From the NCBI GenBank assembly GCA_038063335.1, contig JBBTVF010000033.1, positions 1 to 33,091 on the forward strand: a DNA stretch of 33,091 nt. Reading direction: 5' to 3'. A program made the position numbers and the translations under genes. This document shows, in pieces, positions 11,232 to 16,935 of this stretch (within the stretch, counting starts at the first letter, position 1; each line of letters opens with the position of its first letter). This stretch comes from Patescibacteria group bacterium (GTDB lineage Bacteria; Patescibacteriota; Minisyncoccia; UBA6257; UBA9933). The notes under the pieces are model-generated. The model ran no database searches. It was not told the origin of the DNA and saw only the letters and a program-made list of their open reading frames with translations.

Positions 11232-11441
11232 ATGAAAAATAAGACGAAAATCAAAACATTTTTTTATATGATTCAAAATCAGGAAAAAAGGGAAAAGGAA
11301 TTGAATGATTTCCTTTCTCAAAATGGAATAGTTGTAGAGCAAATATTGCAGTCTGCCGCAACTGGCTCTGTAAAAATAAAAAACCCCCAATATTTAGATG
11401 CGGGCGTAATTATAACGATAGTGTATCACGAAACTTTATAA
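11232..11441 (+). CDS. Small hypothetical protein
   Basis: 69-aa ORF fills the gap between paralogs 3 and 4, and its stop overlaps the next ATG at 11441. Alternative start at MIQNQ. Only a weak resemblance to small Cse60-like proteins. Confidence 0.4.
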   Translation: MKNKTKIKTFFYMIQNQEKREKELNDFLSQNGIVVEQILQSAATGSVKIKNPQYLDAGVIITIVYHETL

Positions 11442-13225
11442 TGAATTCTGAAACTAAAATTTGTCAAAATTGTAAAAATCAGCTTACTATAGAACCCGAG
11501 GATTTTGAATTTTACGATAAAATTAAAGTTCCGGCGCCGACTTTTTGTCCGGAGTGCAGACTAATACGGCGGATGAATTTTAAAAACGAACGTTCTTTTT
11601 ATAGACGAAAATGTGATTTATGCGCCAAATCAATAATAGCTATTTATCCCCAAAATACTTCTTTTTCAGTTTATTGTCCCGCTTGTTGGTGGTCTGATAA
11701 ATGGGACGCGAAAGATTACGGTTTTATTTATAATTTTTCAAAACCTTTTTTTACTCAATTTAAAGAATTATTAAATAAAGTTCCAAGAATTAGTTTATCA
11801 GTAGATTATTTACGAATGATTAATAGTGAATATTCTAATTATACCGGACCATTAAAAAATTGTTATTTAATAATACAAGCCGAAGGAGATGAAAATTGCC
11901 TTTATTCATCGTCAATATTTAATTCAAAAGATTCTGCTGACTGTTTAAGGGTGGCAGATGTTCAAAATTCTTATGAATTATTTAATTGTGAAAAATGCTA
12001 CAATACATTTTTTTCTAATAATTGTTTTGAATGTATAGATGTTTATTTTTCCAAAGATTTAAAAAATTGTTCAAATTGTTTTGGTTGTTCAAATTTAAGG
12101 CATAAGAATTATCATATTTTTAATAAACAATATTCAAAAGAAGAATATTGTAAATTTATTAAAAATTTTAATTCAGGTTCTTTAAATGAAATTCAAAATT
12201 ATAAAGAAAAATTAAAACAATTTTGGATTCAATTTCCAAATAAATATTTTTCCGGATTGTTTAACAATAATGTTTCTGGAGATTATATAGCCAATAGTAA
12301 AAATGTTTTTTATTCATTTGAAATCGGCGGCGGAGAAAATTTAAAATATTGTTTTCAAGCGCATATGTCTATTAGTAAAGATAGTTATGATTACGGAGAT
12401 TGGGGGAATAACGCGTCTTTAATGTATGAATCAATAAATTGCGGAGAAAATATTAATAATACTAAATTTTCTTTTGGCTCATGGATTGACAGTAATTTAC
12501 AATATTGCGATACGGTTATTTCATCTGATTATATGTTTGGATGTAGTCAAATACGTAAAGGTAAATACTGCATCCTCAACAAACAATACACTAAAGAAGA
12601 ATACGAACAATTAGTCCCCCAAATCATAGAACATATGAATAATATGCCGTATATAGATAAAAAAGGCAGAATATACAAATACGGAGAATTCTTCCCCGCA
12701 GAACTCTCTCCTTTCGCCTATAACGAAACAATCGCCCAAGAATACTTCCCTCTAACCAAAGAACAAGCCATAGAACAAGGATATAGCTGGAAAGAATCGG
12801 AAGAAAGGAATATCCAGATAACCATCAAATCAGAAGATCTTCCCGACTATATCAAAGACGTAGATGATACAATTATAAAAGAAATCATTCAATGCGCTCA
12901 TAAAGGTGAATGTAATGAACAATGCACCACCGCCTTCAAAATCATCCCTCAAGAGCTTGAATTCTACAAAAAGATGAATCTTCCCCTACCCAGACTATGT
13001 CCCAACTGCCGTCATTACCAGAGACTCAAACAAAGAAACCCCTTGAAACTATGGCATAGGAAGTGTATGTGCAATGGAAATAAATCAGAAAACGGCATCT
13101 ATACAAACACTATTGCTCACCAACATGGAGATTCCGCTTGTCCCAATGAGTTTGAAACCACCTATTCCCCAGACAGAAAAGAGATAGTTTATTGCGAGAA
13201 GTGTTATCAGCAGGAGGTTGTGTAA
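11441..13225 (+). CDS. Cysteine-rich zinc-ribbon repeat protein, paralog 4
   Basis: 594 aa, closest to paralog 2. Runs of up to 38 nt are identical with 7327-7549 in the 3' region. Confidence 0.8.
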   Translation: MNSETKICQNCKNQLTIEPEDFEFYDKIKVPAPTFCPECRLIRRMNFKNERSFYRRKCDLCAKSIIAIYPQNTSFSVYCPACWWSDKWDAKDYGFIYNFSKPFFTQFKELLNKVPRISLSVDYLRMINSEYSNYTGPLKNCYLIIQAEGDENCLYSSSIFNSKDSADCLRVADVQNSYELFNCEKCYNTFFSNNCFECIDVYFSKDLKNCSNCFGCSNLRHKNYHIFNKQYSKEEYCKFIKNFNSGSLNEIQNYKEKLKQFWIQFPNKYFSGLFNNNVSGDYIANSKNVFYSFEIGGGENLKYCFQAHMSISKDSYDYGDWGNNASLMYESINCGENINNTKFSFGSWIDSNLQYCDTVISSDYMFGCSQIRKGKYCILNKQYTKEEYEQLVPQIIEHMNNMPYIDKKGRIYKYGEFFPAELSPFAYNETIAQEYFPLTKEQAIEQGYSWKESEERNIQITIKSEDLPDYIKDVDDTIIKEIIQCAHKGECNEQCTTAFKIIPQELEFYKKMNLPLPRLCPNCRHYQRLKQRNPLKLWHRKCMCNGNKSENGIYTNTIAHQHGDSACPNEFETTYSPDRKEIVYCEKCYQQEVV

Positions 13226-13262: not shown

Positions 13263-13613
13263 ATGAAAAATTATTATTATATTTCGGCAATAATTAAATA
13301 TCTTACCGGATTGTTGGAAATTGTTTTGGGAGCGAGGGTAATTTTGAAATTTTTGGGCGCCAGTTCAAAGGCGCTGATTGTGGAATTGCTTTATAAAACA
13401 ACCGATTTCATAACGGCTCCGTTTAAATTCATATTCCCGAATGTTTATCTTGATAAGGGAGTAATTGATTTTACAACTCTTTCCGCGATGCTCGGATATT
13501 TGATATTGGTATTGGCGATACTGAAATTTTTAAGGCTTGTTTTAATCAGGCCGTTGGAAGACGACAAACCGAAAATAGATAAAATAAGCAAGCCTCCTTT
13601 TATAAATCGTTAA
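13263..13613 (+). CDS. YggT-family small membrane protein
   Basis: Hydrophobic protein with a YggT-like pattern (LLEIVLGARVILKFLGA...TDFITAPFKFIFP...GVIDFTTLSAMLGYLIL). The tracked ORF starts at 13218, but the ATG at 13263 avoids overlapping paralog 4. Confidence 0.5.
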   Translation: MKNYYYISAIIKYLTGLLEIVLGARVILKFLGASSKALIVELLYKTTDFITAPFKFIFPNVYLDKGVIDFTTLSAMLGYLILVLAILKFLRLVLIRPLEDDKPKIDKISKPPFINR

Positions 13614-15286
13614 GCTCCTTCTATCGCTTTTTTAATGGCTTCTTTTAATTCTTCTATTTGATTTTCGTTTATTGATTTTTTGGCGAATTCTTTTATTGTC
13701 GGTTCTTTTTGTTCCGGCGATTTTTTTATAAAATCAGATTTTTTTAATTCTTCCAGCGAAATTTCTTTTTTTAAAGGCGTTTTAATTTCTTCCGCTTTGA
13801 TTGCCCCTCCGGTTTTTTCAATAAAAGTTTTTCGTCGCGGCGGTTCAAATTCTATGCCGATTTCTCCCAAATGGCCGGCGTGCGTGAATTTTTTAAAACC
13901 TTCTCTTCCAAAAGCCGGCTTAGTTCCTCTAATTTCCCGCCCTTCATTTTTTTCGTCGCTGAATTTTCTTTCTATTATTGGTCTTTCCGTTGCTAATCCG
14001 CTCCATCTGGAAATTTCTTCTTCAACCTCGCGTTTTGGCTTGGAGTACAATTTACGCGACATTTCAATAACCTCTTCATGATTATTGTCGCGCGCCGTTA
14101 CGGCAAGAGGCGGCAGCGTGTTGGCAGAGAATGGTCGGCTGGTAACACCGTCAACCATTAATTTCAAATAAATTTGACGATTGGGCAAATTAACAACATC
14201 TTCAATGGTAAATTCCGGCTCCAGTTCTTTTTCTAAAAAATCAGCGTCCGCGGCGCCGATACGAAAAATTACCATTGTTCCGACGTTGCCGAAAATGGCG
14301 TCTCGCACAACCGTTGAATCTTTAGTCGCCAGCTGGCCGACATATTGGTGCGCGATAATCAAGTTTAACCGGTATTTTCTGGCCTCGGAAAGGATATTGG
14401 CGAACGATTCGGTGACGAAATTCTGAAATTCATCAACATAAAGATAAAAGTCTTTTCTTTCGGATTCCGGAATTCTTACTCTTTCCATCGCCGCCAATTG
14501 GATTTTCGTGATAATCATCGCTCCCAGAAGCGCGGCATTGTCTTCTCCAATTCTTCCTTTTGAAAGATTAACTAAAAAGATTTTTTCGCTGTTCATTATT
14601 TCAGGAATATTGATGGTGCTTTTTGGCTGACCGACTATGTTTCTGACGAGCGAAGTTGAAAGAAATTGTCCGACTTTGTTTTGGATAGGAACGATAGCTT
14701 CATTTCGGAATTGGTCGCGCCATGTTTCGTATTCATTTATCCAGAATGATTTTACCACTGGGTCTTTAATATTGGCGATAATTCGTTGGCGATAATCTTT
14801 ATCAACAAGAATTCTCGGTATGCCTAAAAGCGTGGTGCCGGGCGTATCTATTAAAGCTAGAACACAGTTGCTTAAAATGTACTCCATTCTAGCTGACCAG
14901 ACATTCGCCCAGATTTTGGTGAAAATCGCCATTAAATCCGAAGATACTAAATGTTTGTATTTCAGGTCCGAGACTTCAAGAACATTGAATCCTATCGGGT
15001 GTTCGGCGTCTATCGGATTAAAATAAACAACGTCTTTGAGCCGTTCTTTGGGGATTCTCTTCATAATCGTTTCAACAAACTCGCCGTGCGGGTCTACGAT
15101 ACAAACTCCCCGGCCATTAATAATGTCTTGAAGGGCCACGTTAAAAAGCATGGTGGTTTTACCGGTGCCGGTTTTTCCGATGACGTACATATGCTGGCGG
15201 CGGTCAACGGTTTTGATGCCAAAAGCGCGGTCCTTGTTGCGGAAGTTTGTTTTGGCGAATACGGTGATGTCTTTAATGGTTTCCAT
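13610..15286 (-). CDS. Second TraD/TrwB/VirD4-like P-loop NTPase, paralog of 7640-9097, with a long charged C-terminal tail
   Basis: Walker A GKTGTGKT, CIVDPHGE, Walker B FYLYVDEF, ARKYRLNLIIAHQY. Collinear with the first ATPase over about 430 aa. Confidence 0.7.
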   Translation of the reverse strand: METIKDITVFAKTNFRNKDRAFGIKTVDRRQHMYVIGKTGTGKTTMLFNVALQDIINGRGVCIVDPHGEFVETIMKRIPKERLKDVVYFNPIDAEHPIGFNVLEVSDLKYKHLVSSDLMAIFTKIWANVWSARMEYILSNCVLALIDTPGTTLLGIPRILVDKDYRQRIIANIKDPVVKSFWINEYETWRDQFRNEAIVPIQNKVGQFLSTSLVRNIVGQPKSTINIPEIMNSEKIFLVNLSKGRIGEDNAALLGAMIITKIQLAAMERVRIPESERKDFYLYVDEFQNFVTESFANILSEARKYRLNLIIAHQYVGQLATKDSTVVRDAIFGNVGTMVIFRIGAADADFLEKELEPEFTIEDVVNLPNRQIYLKLMVDGVTSRPFSANTLPPLAVTARDNNHEEVIEMSRKLYSKPKREVEEEISRWSGLATERPIIERKFSDEKNEGREIRGTKPAFGREGFKKFTHAGHLGEIGIEFEPPRRKTFIEKTGGAIKAEEIKTPLKKEISLEELKKSDFIKKSPEQKEPTIKEFAKKSINENQIEELKEAIKKAIEGA

Positions 15287-15304
15287 CCCTCACCCTTCAA
15301 GCAT
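15285..15304. repeat. Left arm of the 20-bp perfect inverted repeat bracketing the GIY-YIG gene
   Basis: ATCCCTCACCCTTCAAGCAT is the exact reverse complement of 15559-15578. Confidence 0.9.
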
Positions 15305-15556
15305 TAAAGAATTGTAGAGGCGGCTCTTCAAAGAAGAGAAGCCTTTGGCAAATTGCTTTAATCTTTTTTCTCTTATTAACGCGTCCTCTTTTGATTTATA
15401 TGATTCAAAATATATTAGTTCCATAGGTCTTATATTTTTTGTAGATTGTACCATGCCTTGATTATGTTTTTCCATTCTTTCTTTAAGATTTTCGGCAAAA
15501 CCGATATAAAAACTATTATCTTTTTTTGACCTTAATAAATAAACATGGAAAAACAT
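15290..15556 (-). CDS. Stand-alone GIY-YIG nuclease-domain protein
   Basis: 88 aa. VYLLRSKKDNSFYIGFAENLKERMEKHN...ALIREKRLK is the GIY-YIG / UPF0213-type motif set. Confidence 0.8.
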   Translation of the reverse strand: MFFHVYLLRSKKDNSFYIGFAENLKERMEKHNQGMVQSTKNIRPMELIYFESYKSKEDALIREKRLKQFAKGFSSLKSRLYNSLMLEG

Positions 15557-15643: not shown

Positions 15644-16795
15644 ATGAATCAAAATAAACAATATATTGAAATTAAATCAAAAGAAGAAGAGGAAATAAGA
15701 AAAAATTTGGGAAAAAAAGACGAGCCGGAAGTTAAAAGAATGCTCCGTTTTCTTAATCTTCCTGATTTGTCGCGCGATGAAAACAGCCCATTGCGCGAAA
15801 TTGTCCGGCGCATTCAAAAAATCAAGCGTTTTGCCGGTTTTGACGAAATCAAAACTCCGGAAATTGTACCCGTTGACGTGAGTTTTGATTTGTTTAATTT
15901 TCCTCCCGAACATCCAGCTCGAAGCCGTTCCGACACTTATTATGCCGATGACGGCCATATTTTAAGAACTCACACCACAGTGATGTGGTATTACTATTTA
16001 AATAATGAAATTATTAAGGAAAGGATTAAAAATAAATTGTCTATGGGGGCGCTTTCTTTTGGCAAAGTTTACCGCAAAGACGAAATAGACAGAAACCATA
16101 TGAATATTTTTCACCAGATAGATGGGTGGTATCTTTCTCCGAAATCAAAAGAAATCATCACCATTGATGATTTGAAAGCGGTTTTGACGGAAATCGCCCA
16201 TGCCATTTTCGGCAAAGAAATAAAATTCAGGTTTAATATAGATAAATTTCCCTATACCGACCCGAGTGTGGAAATGGAAATTGAAGTGGAGGGCAGATGG
16301 CTGGAAGTTTTGGGTTCGGGAGTTGTACAGCCGACCGTTCTCAAAAATCTAGGAGTTAATCCCGATGAATACAACGGCTGGGCGTTCGGTTTCGGCCTTG
16401 AAAGGTTGGGGATAATAAGCATGAGTCTTCCGGACATCAGGTTGTTTTGGTCCGATGACCCGAAAGTGAAAAAACAGCTTCGACTGGGAAATAAATATAT
16501 TCCGGTGAGCAAATATCCGTCCATTATTAGAGACATATCTTTTATGGTTGGCAAGGATTTTATTCCCAATAATTATTTTGATTTAATAAGGGATATCGGC
16601 GGAAATCTTGTGGAGGAAGTGAAATTGATTGATAAATATGAAGATGCGGAAAAATTCGGCAAAGATAAAACCAGCTACGCTTATCGCATAGTTTACCAAA
16701 GTAATGACAGGACATTGCGTTCGGAAGAGGTTGACGAAATTCAGAAAGAAATTTACCATCAAACAGCAGAACAATTTAACGCGATAATTAGGTAA
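15644..16795 (+). CDS. pheS: Phenylalanine-tRNA ligase: alpha-type catalytic core fused to a C-terminal FDX-ACB anticodon-binding domain (mitochondrial-type single-chain architecture)
   Basis: Class II motifs FPPEHPARS, ILRTHTT, FGKVYRKDEID..H...FHQIDG and GWAFGFGLERL. C-terminal VSKYPSIIRDISF...YFDLIRDIGGNLVEEVKLIDKY...YRIVYQSNDRTL is an FDX-ACB (B8-like) domain. Confidence 0.85.
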   Translation: MNQNKQYIEIKSKEEEEIRKNLGKKDEPEVKRMLRFLNLPDLSRDENSPLREIVRRIQKIKRFAGFDEIKTPEIVPVDVSFDLFNFPPEHPARSRSDTYYADDGHILRTHTTVMWYYYLNNEIIKERIKNKLSMGALSFGKVYRKDEIDRNHMNIFHQIDGWYLSPKSKEIITIDDLKAVLTEIAHAIFGKEIKFRFNIDKFPYTDPSVEMEIEVEGRWLEVLGSGVVQPTVLKNLGVNPDEYNGWAFGFGLERLGIISMSLPDIRLFWSDDPKVKKQLRLGNKYIPVSKYPSIIRDISFMVGKDFIPNNYFDLIRDIGGNLVEEVKLIDKYEDAEKFGKDKTSYAYRIVYQSNDRTLRSEEVDEIQKEIYHQTAEQFNAIIR

Positions 16796-16798
16796 TTT

Positions 16799-16873
16799 GG
16801 CGCCATCGTCTAGCCTGGTCTAGGACATCAGGTTTTCATCCTGGAAACACGGGTTCGAATCCCGTTGGCGCTA
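16799..16873 (+). tRNA. tRNA-Glu (anticodon UUC)
   Basis: GGCGCCA-TC-GTCT/AGCCTGGTCT/AGGAC-A-TCAGG/TTTTCAT/CCTGG...ACGGG/TTCGAAT/CCCGT-TGGCGCT-A. The D-arm is typical of tRNA-Glu. Confidence 0.85.
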
Positions 16874-16880
16874 CAAAATT

Positions 16881-16911
16881 AAAATCCCGTCTAATCGGGA
16901 TTTTATTTTTT
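16881..16911 (+). terminator. Rho-independent terminator after tRNA-Glu
   Basis: AAAATCCCG (16881-16889) pairs with CGGGATTTT (16896-16904) around a 6-nt loop, followed by a T-rich run. Confidence 0.7.
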
Positions 16912-16935
16912 ATGCCATTATGTTAAAATATCGGT

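What the first reader, a model, noticed from the sequence alone, without database searches (positions are those of the whole stretch)
15644..16795. Single-chain, mitochondrial-type phenylalanyl-tRNA synthetase in a bacterium
The 383-aa protein joins a PheS-type class II catalytic core to a C-terminal FDX-ACB domain. The core motifs are FPPEHPARS, ILRTHTT, FGKVYRKDEID, FHQIDGW and GWAFGFGLERL. The FDX-ACB segment (from about 16500) reads VSKYPSIIRDISFMV...NYFDLIRDIGGNLVEEVKLIDKY...YAYRIVYQSNDRTLRSEEV. It closely resembles the C-terminal domain of human mitochondrial PheRS (FARS2) as I remember it. Bacterial PheRS is normally an (alpha-beta)2 heterotetramer with the FDX-ACB domain at the end of PheT. 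Here no pheT follows, because tRNA-Glu is next, and the N-terminal coiled coil is short. This suggests a minimal monomeric PheRS lacking the editing beta subunit.
Basis: partly seen in the sequence, partly recalled or inferred. Interest (0 to 1): 0.6.

Follow-up and report, generated by a model that had tools for sequence, protein, structure and literature searches.

The report
Single-chain PheRS replaces PheS/PheT in bacterium
A tiny groundwater bacterium makes its only phenylalanine-tRNA charging enzyme as one short protein, like mitochondria do, instead of the usual two-subunit bacterial enzyme that also proofreads.

Summary
ORF 15644-16795 (+) encodes 383 aa: a PheS-type class II core (residues 45-278, 1.3e-60) plus a PheT-type FDX-ACB domain (289-383, 1.5e-23). 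Its best solved relatives are human mitochondrial PheRS (3.6e-59).

The 593-kb, 93%-complete Patescibacteria-type genome has no second PheS core and no pheT. It does carry a standard tRNA-Phe(GAA).

Across 341 related genomes, all 34 with this fused gene lack the pheT B5 domain. In 5 of 5 near-complete fused-type genomes the full pheT model hits only the fused gene's tail, so the gene substitutes for pheS/pheT.

Phe-pocket and ATP residues are conserved. A247 aligns with E. coli PheS A294.

Trees of both domains separate all fused forms from canonical PheS and PheT. The window's protein lies in a bacterial clade (97/98). That clade is sister to a group holding eukaryotic organellar PheRS, giant-virus PheRS and the SrmL "mystery ligase".

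The protein scores below the curated cut-offs of pheS_mito, SrmL and pheS. NCBI names its homologues "hypothetical protein".

At least 497 species genomes carry relatives. I found no paper describing a bacterial single-chain PheRS.

Activity, monomeric state and loss of editing are inferred.

The parts
15644..16795 (+). Single-chain phenylalanyl-tRNA synthetase gene (383 aa plus TAA stop)
   Evidence: ORF. Domains. It is the only PheS-type core in the genome. The N-terminus is conserved from residue 1-8 in homologues of 77-84% identity.
15644..15775 (+). Short N-terminal region (residues 1-44). It stands in place of the ~100-residue coiled-coil arm of canonical PheS.
   Evidence: Query residue 44 aligns with E. 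coli PheS residue 100. Nothing in the query aligns to E. coli residues 1-99.
15776..16477 (+). Class II catalytic module (PheS type), residues 45-278
   Evidence: PF01409, E 1.3e-60. The same span was found in the genome search. It is 35% identical to E. coli PheS residues 100-327.
16061..16126 (+). Motif 2 region (residues 140-161, GKVYRKDEIDRNHMNIFHQIDG), including R144, Q158 and D160
   Evidence: R144, D146, D149, H152 and Q158 are invariant in a 50-sequence alignment of bacterial, viral and eukaryotic fused forms.
16247..16258 (+). FPYT element of the phenylalanine pocket (residues 202-205)
   Evidence: It aligns with FPFT of E. coli PheS and of human mitochondrial PheRS. Y at position 204 is also found in canonical PheS: 9 of 19 canonical rows have Y.
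16376..16408 (+). Motif 3 (residues 245-255, GWAFGFGLERL). A247 aligns with E. coli PheS A294, and R254 is the motif 3 arginine.
   Evidence: Pairwise alignment. A247, G249 and R254 are conserved in 19 of 19 Patescibacteria-type fused rows.
16478..16507 (+). Inter-domain linker (residues 279-288, LRLGNKYIPV), the presumed hinge
   Evidence: It lies between the two Pfam envelopes. Independent contigs bridge it. The hinge role is inferred from human mitochondrial PheRS (passages of PMC3275996).
16508..16792 (+). FDX-ACB anticodon-binding domain (residues 289-383), homologous to domain B8 at the C-terminus of PheT
   Evidence: PF03147, E 1.5e-23. It aligns to TIGR00472 positions 697-798 and to E. 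coli PheT 689-794.
16799..16874 (+). tRNA-Glu(UUC), 3 nt downstream of the stop codon and probably co-transcribed
   Evidence: ARAGORN and Rfam RF00005 at 60.5 bits. No terminator-like site lies between the gene and the tRNA.
16880..16913 (+). Terminator-like hairpin (10 pairs) followed by a T-run, closing the PheRS-tRNA-Glu unit
   Evidence: Consensus scan and the sequence. This is a pattern match only.

Best explanation
The gene encodes the organism's only phenylalanyl-tRNA synthetase, built as a single 383-aa chain.

The chain has three parts. A PheS-type class II catalytic module (residues 45-278) is joined by a roughly 10-residue linker to a PheT-type FDX-ACB anticodon-binding domain (residues 289-383). 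The N-terminal coiled coil of PheS and the whole rest of the beta subunit are missing. That includes domains B1-B7 and the B3/B4 editing site.

Proposed mechanism:
- The catalytic module binds Phe and ATP and forms Phe-AMP. The residues involved are the motif 2 and 3 arginines R144 and R254 and the pocket residues F202, Y204, A247 and G249.
- The C-terminal domain reads the GAA anticodon of an ordinary bacterial tRNA-Phe. As in human mitochondrial PheRS, it probably has to swing on the linker to let the acceptor end reach the active site.
- Phe is then transferred to A76.
- There is no cis-editing of Tyr- or m-Tyr-tRNA-Phe, so accuracy rests on the synthetic site alone.

The protein belongs to a bacterial clade of fused PheRS. 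This clade has displaced pheS/pheT in many Paceibacteria-type Patescibacteria. It is sister to the clade holding organellar and giant-virus monomeric PheRS.

Shown here: the architecture, the absence of pheS/pheT, the mutually exclusive distribution, conserved catalytic residues, an unchanged tRNA-Phe, and the phylogenetic position.

Inferred: enzymatic activity, the monomeric state, the hinge motion and the loss of proofreading.
For: Architecture.

Closest solved relatives: human mitochondrial PheRS at 3.6e-59, against 9.5e-43 or weaker for bacterial PheS chains.

Own genome (593,348 bp, 93.23% complete):
- There is one PheS-type core. The two weak PF01409 hits are HisRS and LysRS.
- TIGR00472 hits only this gene's tail.
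- B5 and B3_4 give nothing at E<=1.
- tRNA-Phe(GAA) is present, and Phe codons are used, with 20 in this gene.

Relatives: 15 of 41 genomes have the full-length fused gene (49-84% identity) and 0 of those 15 have B5. The other 26 of 41 all have B5, and 24 of them also show a canonical-type PheS match.

Phylum sample: 20 of 301 genomes are fused-type (17 full-length, 2 partial at contig edges, plus the window's genome). None of the 20 is among the 257 B5-positive genomes.

In 5 of 5 fused-type genomes that are 98-100% complete, the full pheT model hits only the fused gene's C-terminus. In one of them it also hits a 118-aa OB-like ORF.

Catalytic and pocket residues are as conserved as in bona fide PheS and mitochondrial PheRS. 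A247 aligns with E. coli A294.

tRNA-Phe is the same canonical type in 8 fused-type and 21 split-type genomes. All 29 have GAA, A73 and G1-C72.

Synteny of T4CP-like gene, PheRS and TsaD is kept in close relatives, which indicates vertical, housekeeping inheritance.

The junction is bridged by contigs of three independent studies.

Precedents: monomeric mitochondrial PheRS is fully active without a beta subunit (passages of PMC3275996). The monomer type has repeatedly replaced pheS/syfB in diatom plastids (passages of PMC4494062).
Against: No biochemical data exist.

The protein is below the curated cut-offs of all three relevant NCBIfam equivalogs: 242 < 258.35, 234.1 < 300 and 176 < 237.45.

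The genome is a 92-contig MAG at 93% completeness, so absence of pheS/pheT in this one genome is not absolute.

Relatives of the same bacterial clade coexist with a canonical pheS-pheT pair in two larger genomes, G341 and G342. There the fused protein is a paralogue and need not be the housekeeping PheRS.

D160 replaces the usual E of FHQxE, and Y204 replaces F. Both variants also occur in canonical PheS.
Confidence: 0.82

Rival explanations
1. It does act as PheRS, but not as a monomer. It would work as a class II-style homodimer, or together with an unrecognised partner protein that replaces part of the beta subunit.
For: Almost all class II synthetases are dimers. Isolated alpha subunits or alpha2 dimers of the canonical enzyme are inactive (passage of PMC3275996). 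One fused-type genome (G324) carries a free 118-aa ORF matching pheT positions 36-123, an OB-type tRNA-binding region.
Against: The nearest characterised relatives, the mitochondrial PheRS, are active monomers. No B5, B3_4 or catalytic-like beta remnant is detectable in the genome. The free OB-like ORF was seen in 1 of 5 genomes examined.
Confidence: 0.15
2. It is a paralogous 'mystery ligase' with a non-translational substrate, like SrmL (NF051887) or the fused paralogues of G341 and G342. The true PheRS would then lie in the unassembled 7% of the genome.
For: The protein scores 234.1 bits on the SrmL model. Members of its own clade coexist with canonical pheS-pheT in two 2.6-3.4 Mb genomes.
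Against: All 34 fused-type genomes among the 341 examined lack B5, and many are 98-100% complete. Chance loss in all of them is not credible.

The score is below the SrmL cut-off of 300, whereas a true SrmL (P0250) scores 415.3.

The SrmL trio forms a separate long branch. It carries substitutions at pocket positions, including F202 to H, S208 to G and H90 to N or S, that the window's protein does not have.
Confidence: 0.03
3. It is 'mitochondrial-type' in the strict sense: a recent capture of a eukaryotic organellar or giant-virus PheRS gene by a Patescibacterium.
For: The best PDB hits are human mitochondrial PheRS. TIGR00469 is the best-scoring NCBIfam model. Giant viruses carry short forms of the same family (passages of PMC11304981).
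Against: In the careful core tree the bacterial fused forms are one clade (97/98). They lie outside the eukaryote plus virus clade (99/98), not nested within it.

The eukaryote clade contains named sequences from fungi, a choanoflagellate, amphioxus, a fern, Euglena and Vitrella. The split is therefore at least as old as the eukaryotic radiation.

The roughly 31-residue insertion of the human enzyme is absent.
Confidence: 0.06
4. It arose locally, by fusion of the Patescibacteria's own pheS with the 3' end of their own pheT. On this reading it is convergent with the mitochondrial enzyme.
For: Both source domains exist in neighbouring genes (pheS-pheT) in related genomes.
Against: Canonical PheS of Patescibacteria groups with other canonical PheS and away from all fused forms (100/99). 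Forcing the bacterial fused forms and Patescibacteria PheS into one clade costs 185.8 log-likelihood units, p-AU 6e-12 (the group was named after the tree was seen). The FDX-ACB domains of fused forms also separate from 20 PheT FDX-ACB domains (SH-aLRT 98).
Confidence: 0.02

Closest known systems
Mitochondrial (organellar) monomeric PheRS: human FARS2 (PDB 3CMQ and others), yeast and S. pombe Msf1; NCBIfam TIGR00469 pheS_mito; 'PheRS-M' of AARS Online
   Same: The two-module architecture is the same: a PheS catalytic module plus the B8/FDX-ACB domain of PheT. There is no coiled coil, no beta subunit and no editing domain. This is the best sequence match in the PDB (3.6e-59) and the best NCBIfam model. 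Both domains group together in trees.
   Different: The window's protein is bacterial and cytoplasmic, and it is the sole housekeeping PheRS. It scores below the TIGR00469 cut-off (242 < 258.35). It belongs to a separate sister clade (97/98). It lacks the roughly 31-residue insertion seen in the human enzyme and any targeting peptide. It has D instead of E in FHQxE/D and Y in FPYT.
Canonical bacterial (alpha-beta)2 PheRS, PheS/PheT (TIGR00468/TIGR00472; for example E. coli b1714/b1713)
   Same: The catalytic module is 35% identical to E. coli PheS residues 100-327, including the C-terminal tail. The C-terminal domain is homologous to PheT residues 689-794. The tRNA-Phe substrate is of the same type.
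   Different: It is one chain of 383 aa instead of about 327 plus 795 aa. It has no N-terminal coiled coil, no B1-B7 and no B3/B4 editing site. It scores below the TIGR00468 cut-off (176 < 237.45). The review passages read state that heterotetrameric organisation is conserved in all known prokaryotic species.
SrmL, 'PheS-related mystery ligase' (NCBIfam NF051887)
   Same: It has the same fused PheS-core plus FDX-ACB layout. The profile aligns over residues 52-375 at 234.1 bits.
   Different: The score is below the cut-off of 300, while a true member (P0250) scores 415.3. SrmL-type sequences form a separate long branch with altered pocket residues. I found no paper on SrmL: 0 occurrences in the 10 papers listed of the 2,060 that one search returned. 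The name and description come from the NCBIfam library only.
Giant-virus (Nucleocytoviricota) PheRS
   Same: These are short single-chain forms (337-367 aa) with both domains. One such cluster (P0135) lies on IMG/VR contigs of up to 204 kb.
   Different: The viral forms group with the eukaryotic organellar clade (99/98), not with the bacterial clade. They pass the TIGR00469 cut-off at 260-308 bits.
Replacement of plastid pheS/syfB by the monomer-type PheRS in diatoms and other algae (PMC4494062)
   Same: The evolutionary event is the same. A two-gene heterotetrameric bacterial-type PheRS is lost after a monomer-type enzyme takes over the same tRNA-Phe.
   Different: That event happened in organelles by retargeting of a nuclear gene. 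Here it happens in free-standing bacterial genomes.

Membership tests
Pfam PF01409 tRNA-synt_2d (PheRS class II core) | Profile match above the gathering score | tested here: met
   205.4 bits against a cut-off of 19.8, residues 45-278.
Pfam PF03147 FDX-ACB | Profile match above the gathering score | tested here: met
   83.5 bits against a cut-off of 31.1, residues 289-383, covering profile positions 1-94 of 94.
NCBIfam TIGR00469 pheS_mito (organellar monomeric PheRS) | Whole-protein score at or above the curated cut-off (258.35 bits) | tested here: not met
   242 bits. Named eukaryotic members score 395-446 bits and viral-type short forms 260-308 bits.
NCBIfam TIGR00469 pheS_mito (organellar monomeric PheRS) | Architecture: catalytic module plus C-terminal FDX-ACB in one chain, with no beta subunit in the compartment | tested here: met
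NCBIfam TIGR00469 pheS_mito (organellar monomeric PheRS) | Placement inside the organellar clade in a phylogeny | tested here: not met
   The protein lies in a bacterial clade (97/98) that is sister to SrmL plus the eukaryote and virus clade (99/98).
NCBIfam TIGR00469 pheS_mito (organellar monomeric PheRS) | Active as a monomer | not testable with these tools
This needs SEC-MALS plus an activity assay.
NCBIfam NF051887 SrmL (PheS-related mystery ligase) | Whole-protein score at or above the curated cut-off (300 bits) | tested here: not met
   234.1 bits. A true member, P0250, scores 415.3.
NCBIfam NF051887 SrmL (PheS-related mystery ligase) | Clade membership and the family's altered pocket residues | tested here: not met
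   The SrmL trio is a separate long branch. The H202, G208 and N/S90 substitutions of the trio are not shared by the window's protein.
NCBIfam TIGR00468 pheS (alpha subunit of the heterotetramer) | Score at or above the cut-off (237.45 bits), and a PheT partner encoded in the genome | tested here: not met
   176 bits. No pheT was found.
Phenylalanyl-tRNA synthetase (function, EC 6.1.1.20) | Conserved class II motif 2 and 3 arginines and Phe-pocket residues | tested here: met
   R144, Q158, F202-P203-Y204-T205, A247 (aligned with E. coli A294), G249 and R254.
Phenylalanyl-tRNA synthetase (function, EC 6.1.1.20) | It is the only candidate PheRS in a genome that has tRNA-Phe and uses Phe codons | tested here: met
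   Complementary distribution is shown.
Phenylalanyl-tRNA synthetase (function, EC 6.1.1.20) | Charges tRNA-Phe with Phe | not testable with these tools
   This requires a recombinant enzyme assay or genetic complementation.

The most novel reading that the evidence does not exclude
The single-chain PheRS is an old bacterial invention, and the mitochondrial enzyme descends from it. Rooted with canonical PheS, the fused family splits into three lineages: the bacterial PheRS clade found here, the SrmL ligases (taken as bacterial because NCBIfam models annotate prokaryotic genomes) and the eukaryote plus giant-virus clade. The presumed prokaryotic lineages branch first.

On this reading eukaryotes did not build their monomeric mitochondrial PheRS themselves by cutting down the endosymbiont's pheS/pheT. 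They inherited or captured a ready-made bacterial single-chain enzyme before the last eukaryotic common ancestor. Paceibacteria-type Patescibacteria would then be living bacteria that still translate with this non-editing, minimal PheRS.
Probability: 0.4. Interest if true: 0.8.

Novelty: new variant of a known kind. Interest (0 to 1): 0.66.

Why it matters
PheRS is the textbook example of an obligate heterotetrameric synthetase. The monomeric form has been treated as a mitochondrial and organellar peculiarity. The review passages read call it the only known monomeric class II catalytic module and say heterotetrameric organisation is conserved in all known prokaryotes. AARS Online lists PheRS-M with FARS2 only.

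Three consequences follow if a large bacterial radiation uses a single-chain, editing-free PheRS as its sole enzyme.
- Annotation pipelines currently leave an essential translation gene labelled 'hypothetical protein' in hundreds of genomes. This also distorts completeness and metabolic inferences for these bacteria.
- It gives a natural bacterial system in which to ask how cells tolerate loss of Tyr and m-Tyr proofreading.
- It makes the origin of the mitochondrial PheRS directly testable, because a bacterial sister clade now exists.

It also offers a 383-aa PheRS without organellar targeting peptide or insertions for structural and engineering work.

Tried and rejected

Expression: no RNA holder was listed for the stretch. 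Only DNA contigs could be laid.

Rfam found no leader or T-box upstream, only the two tRNAs. The promoter scan gave only consensus-level hits.

A 14-sequence alignment (A1) was too diverse for the collection scan. A 5-sequence alignment (A2) was used instead.

P0156-type short forms were not found in IMG/VR. Only the P0135 cluster was. 'Giant-virus type' is therefore shown for one subgroup of the 16 short rows.

Broader canonical outgroups could not be sampled.
- E. coli K-12 could not serve as a centre for sampling Pseudomonadota.
- The canonical outgroup is therefore limited to Patescibacteria (8 rows), G341, G342 and G342's phylum (9 rows), and two unnamed representatives.
- E. coli was used only for pairwise residue mapping.
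- No alphaproteobacterial PheS or PheT is in the trees. This limits the claim about mitochondrial origin.

Neighbours of the fused paralogues in G341 and G342 gave no functional hint. They are a periplasmic binding protein, a GNAT, a TIM-barrel protein, a carbamoyltransferase and a beta-lactamase-family protein.

A search for co-variation between PheRS type and tRNA-Phe found none.

The B5-only test for pheT gives false negatives. Family f37 lacks a B5 hit in 0 of 15 genomes, as does G218, yet the 4 f37 genomes and G218 that were examined have a divergent pheT when searched with the full model. I therefore re-tested 5 fused-type genomes with the full model.

The whole-word literature search for 'SrmL' returned only unrelated 'PHES' papers.

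Literature searches for a bacterial monomeric PheRS found none. This covers only the open-access library.

The preliminary FastTree was superseded by the IQ-TREE runs.

Rows chosen for the trees:
- Of the 150 listed representatives, 76 covered both domains by my BLAST criteria.
- I hand-picked 41 of those 76 to span the FastTree clades. One of them, P0124, went in as its locus L020, so 40 rows carry representative ids. The other 35 were left out.

The tallies include one unpublished genome (G194, split type, B5-positive).
Full report
**1. What is there**

The ORF at 15644-16795 (+) starts with ATG, ends with TAA and encodes 383 aa.

Pfam places a PheRS class II core (PF01409) at residues 45-278 (E 1.3e-60). 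It places an FDX-ACB domain (PF03147) at residues 289-383 (E 1.5e-23).

Pairwise BLASTP against E. coli K-12 gives two alignments.
- Residues 44-280 align with PheS 100-327, the whole catalytic module to its C-terminus, at 35% identity.
- Residues 281-383 align with the last domain of PheT, residues 689-794.

The roughly 100-residue coiled-coil arm of PheS has no counterpart.

tRNA-Glu(UUC) follows 3 nt after the stop codon. After it comes a terminator-like hairpin at 16880-16905, so the gene and the tRNA probably form one transcription unit.

The upstream neighbours are a GIY-YIG protein and a T4SS coupling-protein-like ATPase on the other strand. Downstream lie VKOR, TsaD and FtsW/RodA.

**2. 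Is it real?**

Contigs from groundwater metagenomes of three studies other than the possible source bridge the core/FDX-ACB junction without indels. One 1,583-nt contig covers 15560-16865 with a single difference.

The best 120 homologues in the 5.8-billion-protein collection all carry both Pfam domains and are 66-100% identical.

**3. Is it the organism's PheRS?**

The window's genome (G000) has 593,348 bp in 92 contigs. It is 93.23% complete with 1.29% contamination.

- The PheRS core profile finds this gene (204.3 bits) and two weak hits (about 21 bits). Those two are HisRS and LysRS.
- The full pheT model hits only this gene's own tail.
- The B5 and B3_4 (editing) domain profiles find nothing at E<=1, although both ring in all 14 control genomes.
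- The genome has 40 tRNA genes, including tRNA-Phe(GAA).
- The PheRS gene itself uses 20 Phe codons.

One MAG cannot prove absence, so I looked at relatives.

*Relatives of genus, family and order.* Among 41 genomes, 15 have a full-length fused homologue (49-84% identity) and none of these 15 has a B5 hit. The other 26 all have B5. Of those 26, 24 also show a canonical-type PheS match (mostly 30-38% identity to the core), and most show a separate FDX-ACB match in a 640-710-aa frame.

*Even sample of the phylum.* Among 301 genomes, 20 are fused-type: 17 full-length at 51-63% identity, 2 partial at contig edges, plus G000. None of the 20 is among the 257 B5-positive genomes.

*A caveat on B5.* B5 alone gives false negatives. 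Family f37 has no B5 hit in any of its 15 genomes, nor does G218, yet the four f37 genomes and G218 that I re-examined with the full model do have a divergent pheT. I therefore re-tested five fused-type genomes of 98-100% completeness with the full model. In 5 of 5 it hits only the C-terminus of the fused gene. In one of them it also hits a free 118-aa OB-like ORF.

Pooled, all 34 fused-type genomes among the 341 examined lack a detectable pheT. The fused gene and pheS/pheT are mutually exclusive in this phylum. That is what is expected if one replaces the other.

Close relatives keep the order T4CP-like gene, PheRS, TsaD. This fits a vertically inherited housekeeping gene.

**4. Can it do the chemistry?**

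In a 50-sequence alignment of bacterial, viral and named eukaryotic fused forms, the invariant columns include R108, R144, D146, D149, H152, F156, Q158, P203, E221, G224, G226, G249 and R254.

Group-wise counts show that the Patescibacteria-type fused rows (19) conserve several residues as strictly as canonical PheS and eukaryotic enzymes do. These are the motif 2 and 3 arginines, Q158, F202-P203-(Y/F)204-T205 and A247-F248-G249.

A247 aligns with E. coli PheS A294. From recall, that residue gates the size of the Phe pocket.

Two deviations, D160 for E and Y204 for F, also occur in canonical PheS rows.

By contrast, the SrmL-type sequences carry changes at pocket positions: H at 202, G at 208 and N or S at 90.

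The tRNA substrate has not changed. tRNA-Phe genes were recovered from 29 of the 30 loci fetched (8 fused-type and 21 split-type genomes). All 29 begin GCC, end GGCA(73)C and have the GAA anticodon.

**5. Mechanism**

The closest characterised enzymes are the mitochondrial PheRS. The review passages I read (PMC3275996) describe the human enzyme as follows.
- It is a chimera of the alpha catalytic module and the B8 anticodon-binding domain of the bacterial beta subunit.
- It is fully active as a monomer.
- Its anticodon-binding domain must rearrange considerably to bind tRNA.
- It has lost the domains used in quality control.

By homology I propose four steps: Phe-AMP formation in the class II site, anticodon reading by residues 289-383, a hinge motion at linker residues 279-288, and transfer to A76.

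There is no cis-editing, because the B3/B4 site is absent. No free B3_4 protein is encoded either.

Activity, monomeric state and hinge motion are inferences. The structure and complex predictors were closed.

**6. Where it belongs**

NCBIfam scores are 242 bits for pheS_mito (cut-off 258.35), 234.1 for the 'PheS-related mystery ligase SrmL' (cut-off 300) and 176 for pheS (cut-off 237.45). The protein is therefore a member of none of the curated equivalogs.

A whole-library HMMER search gave 302 cluster representatives at E<=1e-30. Of the 150 listed, 76 cover both domains. Look-ups named ten of the long forms as eukaryotic: Branchiostoma, Allomyces and S. osmophilus mitochondrial PheRS, plus chytrid, Neoconidiobolus, Dacryopinax, Salpingoeca, Pteridium, Euglena and Vitrella sequences. 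One short-form cluster lies on IMG/VR contigs of up to 204 kb. This matches the giant-virus PheRS reported to group with organellar PheRS (passages of PMC11304981). P0250 is a true SrmL at 415.3 bits.

*Core tree.* A careful IQ-TREE (LG+C20+F+G4 PMSF) was built on 80 rows and 237 core columns. Supports are ultrafast bootstrap / SH-aLRT.

| Split | Rows | Support |
|---|---|---|
| Canonical PheS against all fused forms | 19 against 61 | 100/99 |
| Bacterial fused clade | 23 | 97/98 |
| Eukaryote plus virus clade | 35 | 99/98 |
| SrmL trio joined to the eukaryote plus virus clade, on a long branch | 38 | 84/80 |

The 19 canonical rows are 8 from Patescibacteria, 9 from G341, G342 and G342's phylum, and 2 unnamed (the quick version is).

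Forcing the bacterial fused forms together with Patescibacteria's own PheS is rejected (delta lnL 185.8, p-AU 6e-12). The caveat is that the group was named after the tree was seen.

*FDX-ACB tree.* A separate quick tree of the FDX-ACB domain used 81 rows and 95 columns. It splits 20 PheT domains from all 61 fused-form domains (SH-aLRT 98), but it resolves little inside.

Both modules therefore point to one origin of the fused architecture, shared by bacteria, viruses and organelles. They do not point to a local fusion.

*Limits.* The canonical outgroups come from two phyla plus two unnamed sequences. No Alphaproteobacteria are included. Shared loss of beta-subunit contacts could also pull fused forms together artefactually.

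**7. Distribution and dynamics**

The best 80 are almost all Paceibacteria/Parcubacteria-type MAGs: Wolfe-, Staskawicz-, Nealson-, Harrison-, Taylor-, Wildermuth- and Moranbacteria, with some mislabelled as Gammaproteobacteria or Saccharibacteria at 0.6-0.8 Mb.

NCBI names the homologues 'hypothetical protein'. JGI names them 'PheRS alpha chain'.

The bacterial clade has two subclades (A 97/85, B 61/95), and both occur within the window's family.
- Within its genus, G003 carries subclade A, while G000 and G001 carry subclade B. G002, at 80% identity to the window's protein, was not in the tree but is presumably B as well.
- In genus g51, one genome is fused-type (G324) and the other has pheS plus B5 (G296).

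Replacement therefore looks recurrent and recent.

Two larger MAGs carry a subclade-A-related copy in addition to an adjacent canonical pheS-pheT pair. They are labelled Oligoflexia (3.4 Mb) and Pseudomonadota (2.6 Mb). The copy sits in loci whose GC (0.49-0.50) matches their own pheS loci. Only 1 of 41 genomes of that phylum has it. In those genomes it is a paralogue of unknown role.

**8. Novelty**

These searches found no paper describing a bacterial single-chain PheRS.
- Monomeric or mitochondrial-type PheRS in bacteria.
- PheRS with Candidate Phyla Radiation, Parcubacteria or Patescibacteria.
- Origin of mitochondrial PheRS and FDX-ACB.
- Editing and monomer.

The one CPR paper found mentions only PheRS-beta variants lacking B2 (passages of PMC5370408). 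AARS Online and its companion paper list PheRS-M with the human mitochondrial structure only (passages).

This is absence from an open-access library, not proof of absence from the literature. Supplements were closed.

I rate the finding a new variant of a known kind. It is a known enzyme design (monomeric PheRS) found as the sole cytoplasmic PheRS of a large bacterial group. It lies in its own clade, outside all curated families.

**9. Verdict**

Confidence that this is the functional, sole, single-chain PheRS is about 0.8. Confidence that it acts as a monomer is lower.

The most novel reading still open is that mitochondria inherited an already-fused bacterial enzyme (probability about 0.4).

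Noticed in passing
window 11441-13225 (+): A 594-aa cysteine-rich ORF with many CxxC pairs has no Pfam family at E<=0.001.
   Followed up: no
window 13610-15286 (-) and 15290-15556 (-): A type IV secretion coupling-protein-like ATPase (TrwB_AAD_bind, T4SS-DNA_transf, TraG-D_C) and a small GIY-YIG protein lie just upstream of the PheRS gene. The T4CP-like gene stays next to PheRS in close relatives.
   Followed up: partly
G004:C1:324460-324766 and G028:C16:16626-16935; 5'-half-only matches in G014, G038 and G039: The tRNA-Phe query matches as two halves about 230 nt apart, breaking at the anticodon loop. This suggests intron-interrupted tRNA-Phe genes in some relatives.
   Followed up: no
phylum sample, family f37 (15 genomes) and G218: No B5 (PF03484) hit at 1e-5, yet the 4 f37 genomes examined and G218 have a pheT detectable with the full TIGR00472 model (171-300 bits). 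These lineages have a strongly divergent B5 region.
   Followed up: partly
G324:C4:77006-77254 (-): A free-standing 118-aa ORF matches pheT positions 36-123 (the OB-type tRNA-binding B2 region) in a genome that has the fused PheRS and no pheT.
   Followed up: no
for example G215:C1:160377-161057, G257:C9, G098:C15, G122:C1, G309:C1, G280:C1: Several Patescibacteria show the canonical PheS match inside open frames of 1,090-1,200 aa. G215 has no internal stop in the match. This hints at full-length PheS-PheT fusions, a different single-chain solution.
   Followed up: no
L020 (G341, Oligoflexia-labelled MAG) and L021 (G342, Pseudomonadota-labelled MAG): Fused PheS-FDX-ACB paralogues (414-431 aa, with longer N-termini) coexist with an adjacent canonical pheS-pheT pair. 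They retain all Phe-pocket residues, and their role is unknown.
   Followed up: partly
genus g51 (G296 against G324) and genus g1 (G003 against G000, G001 and G002): Members of one genus differ in PheRS type, or carry fused genes of different subclades (51% against 78-80% identity to the window's protein). This implies recent replacement or transfer.
   Followed up: partly
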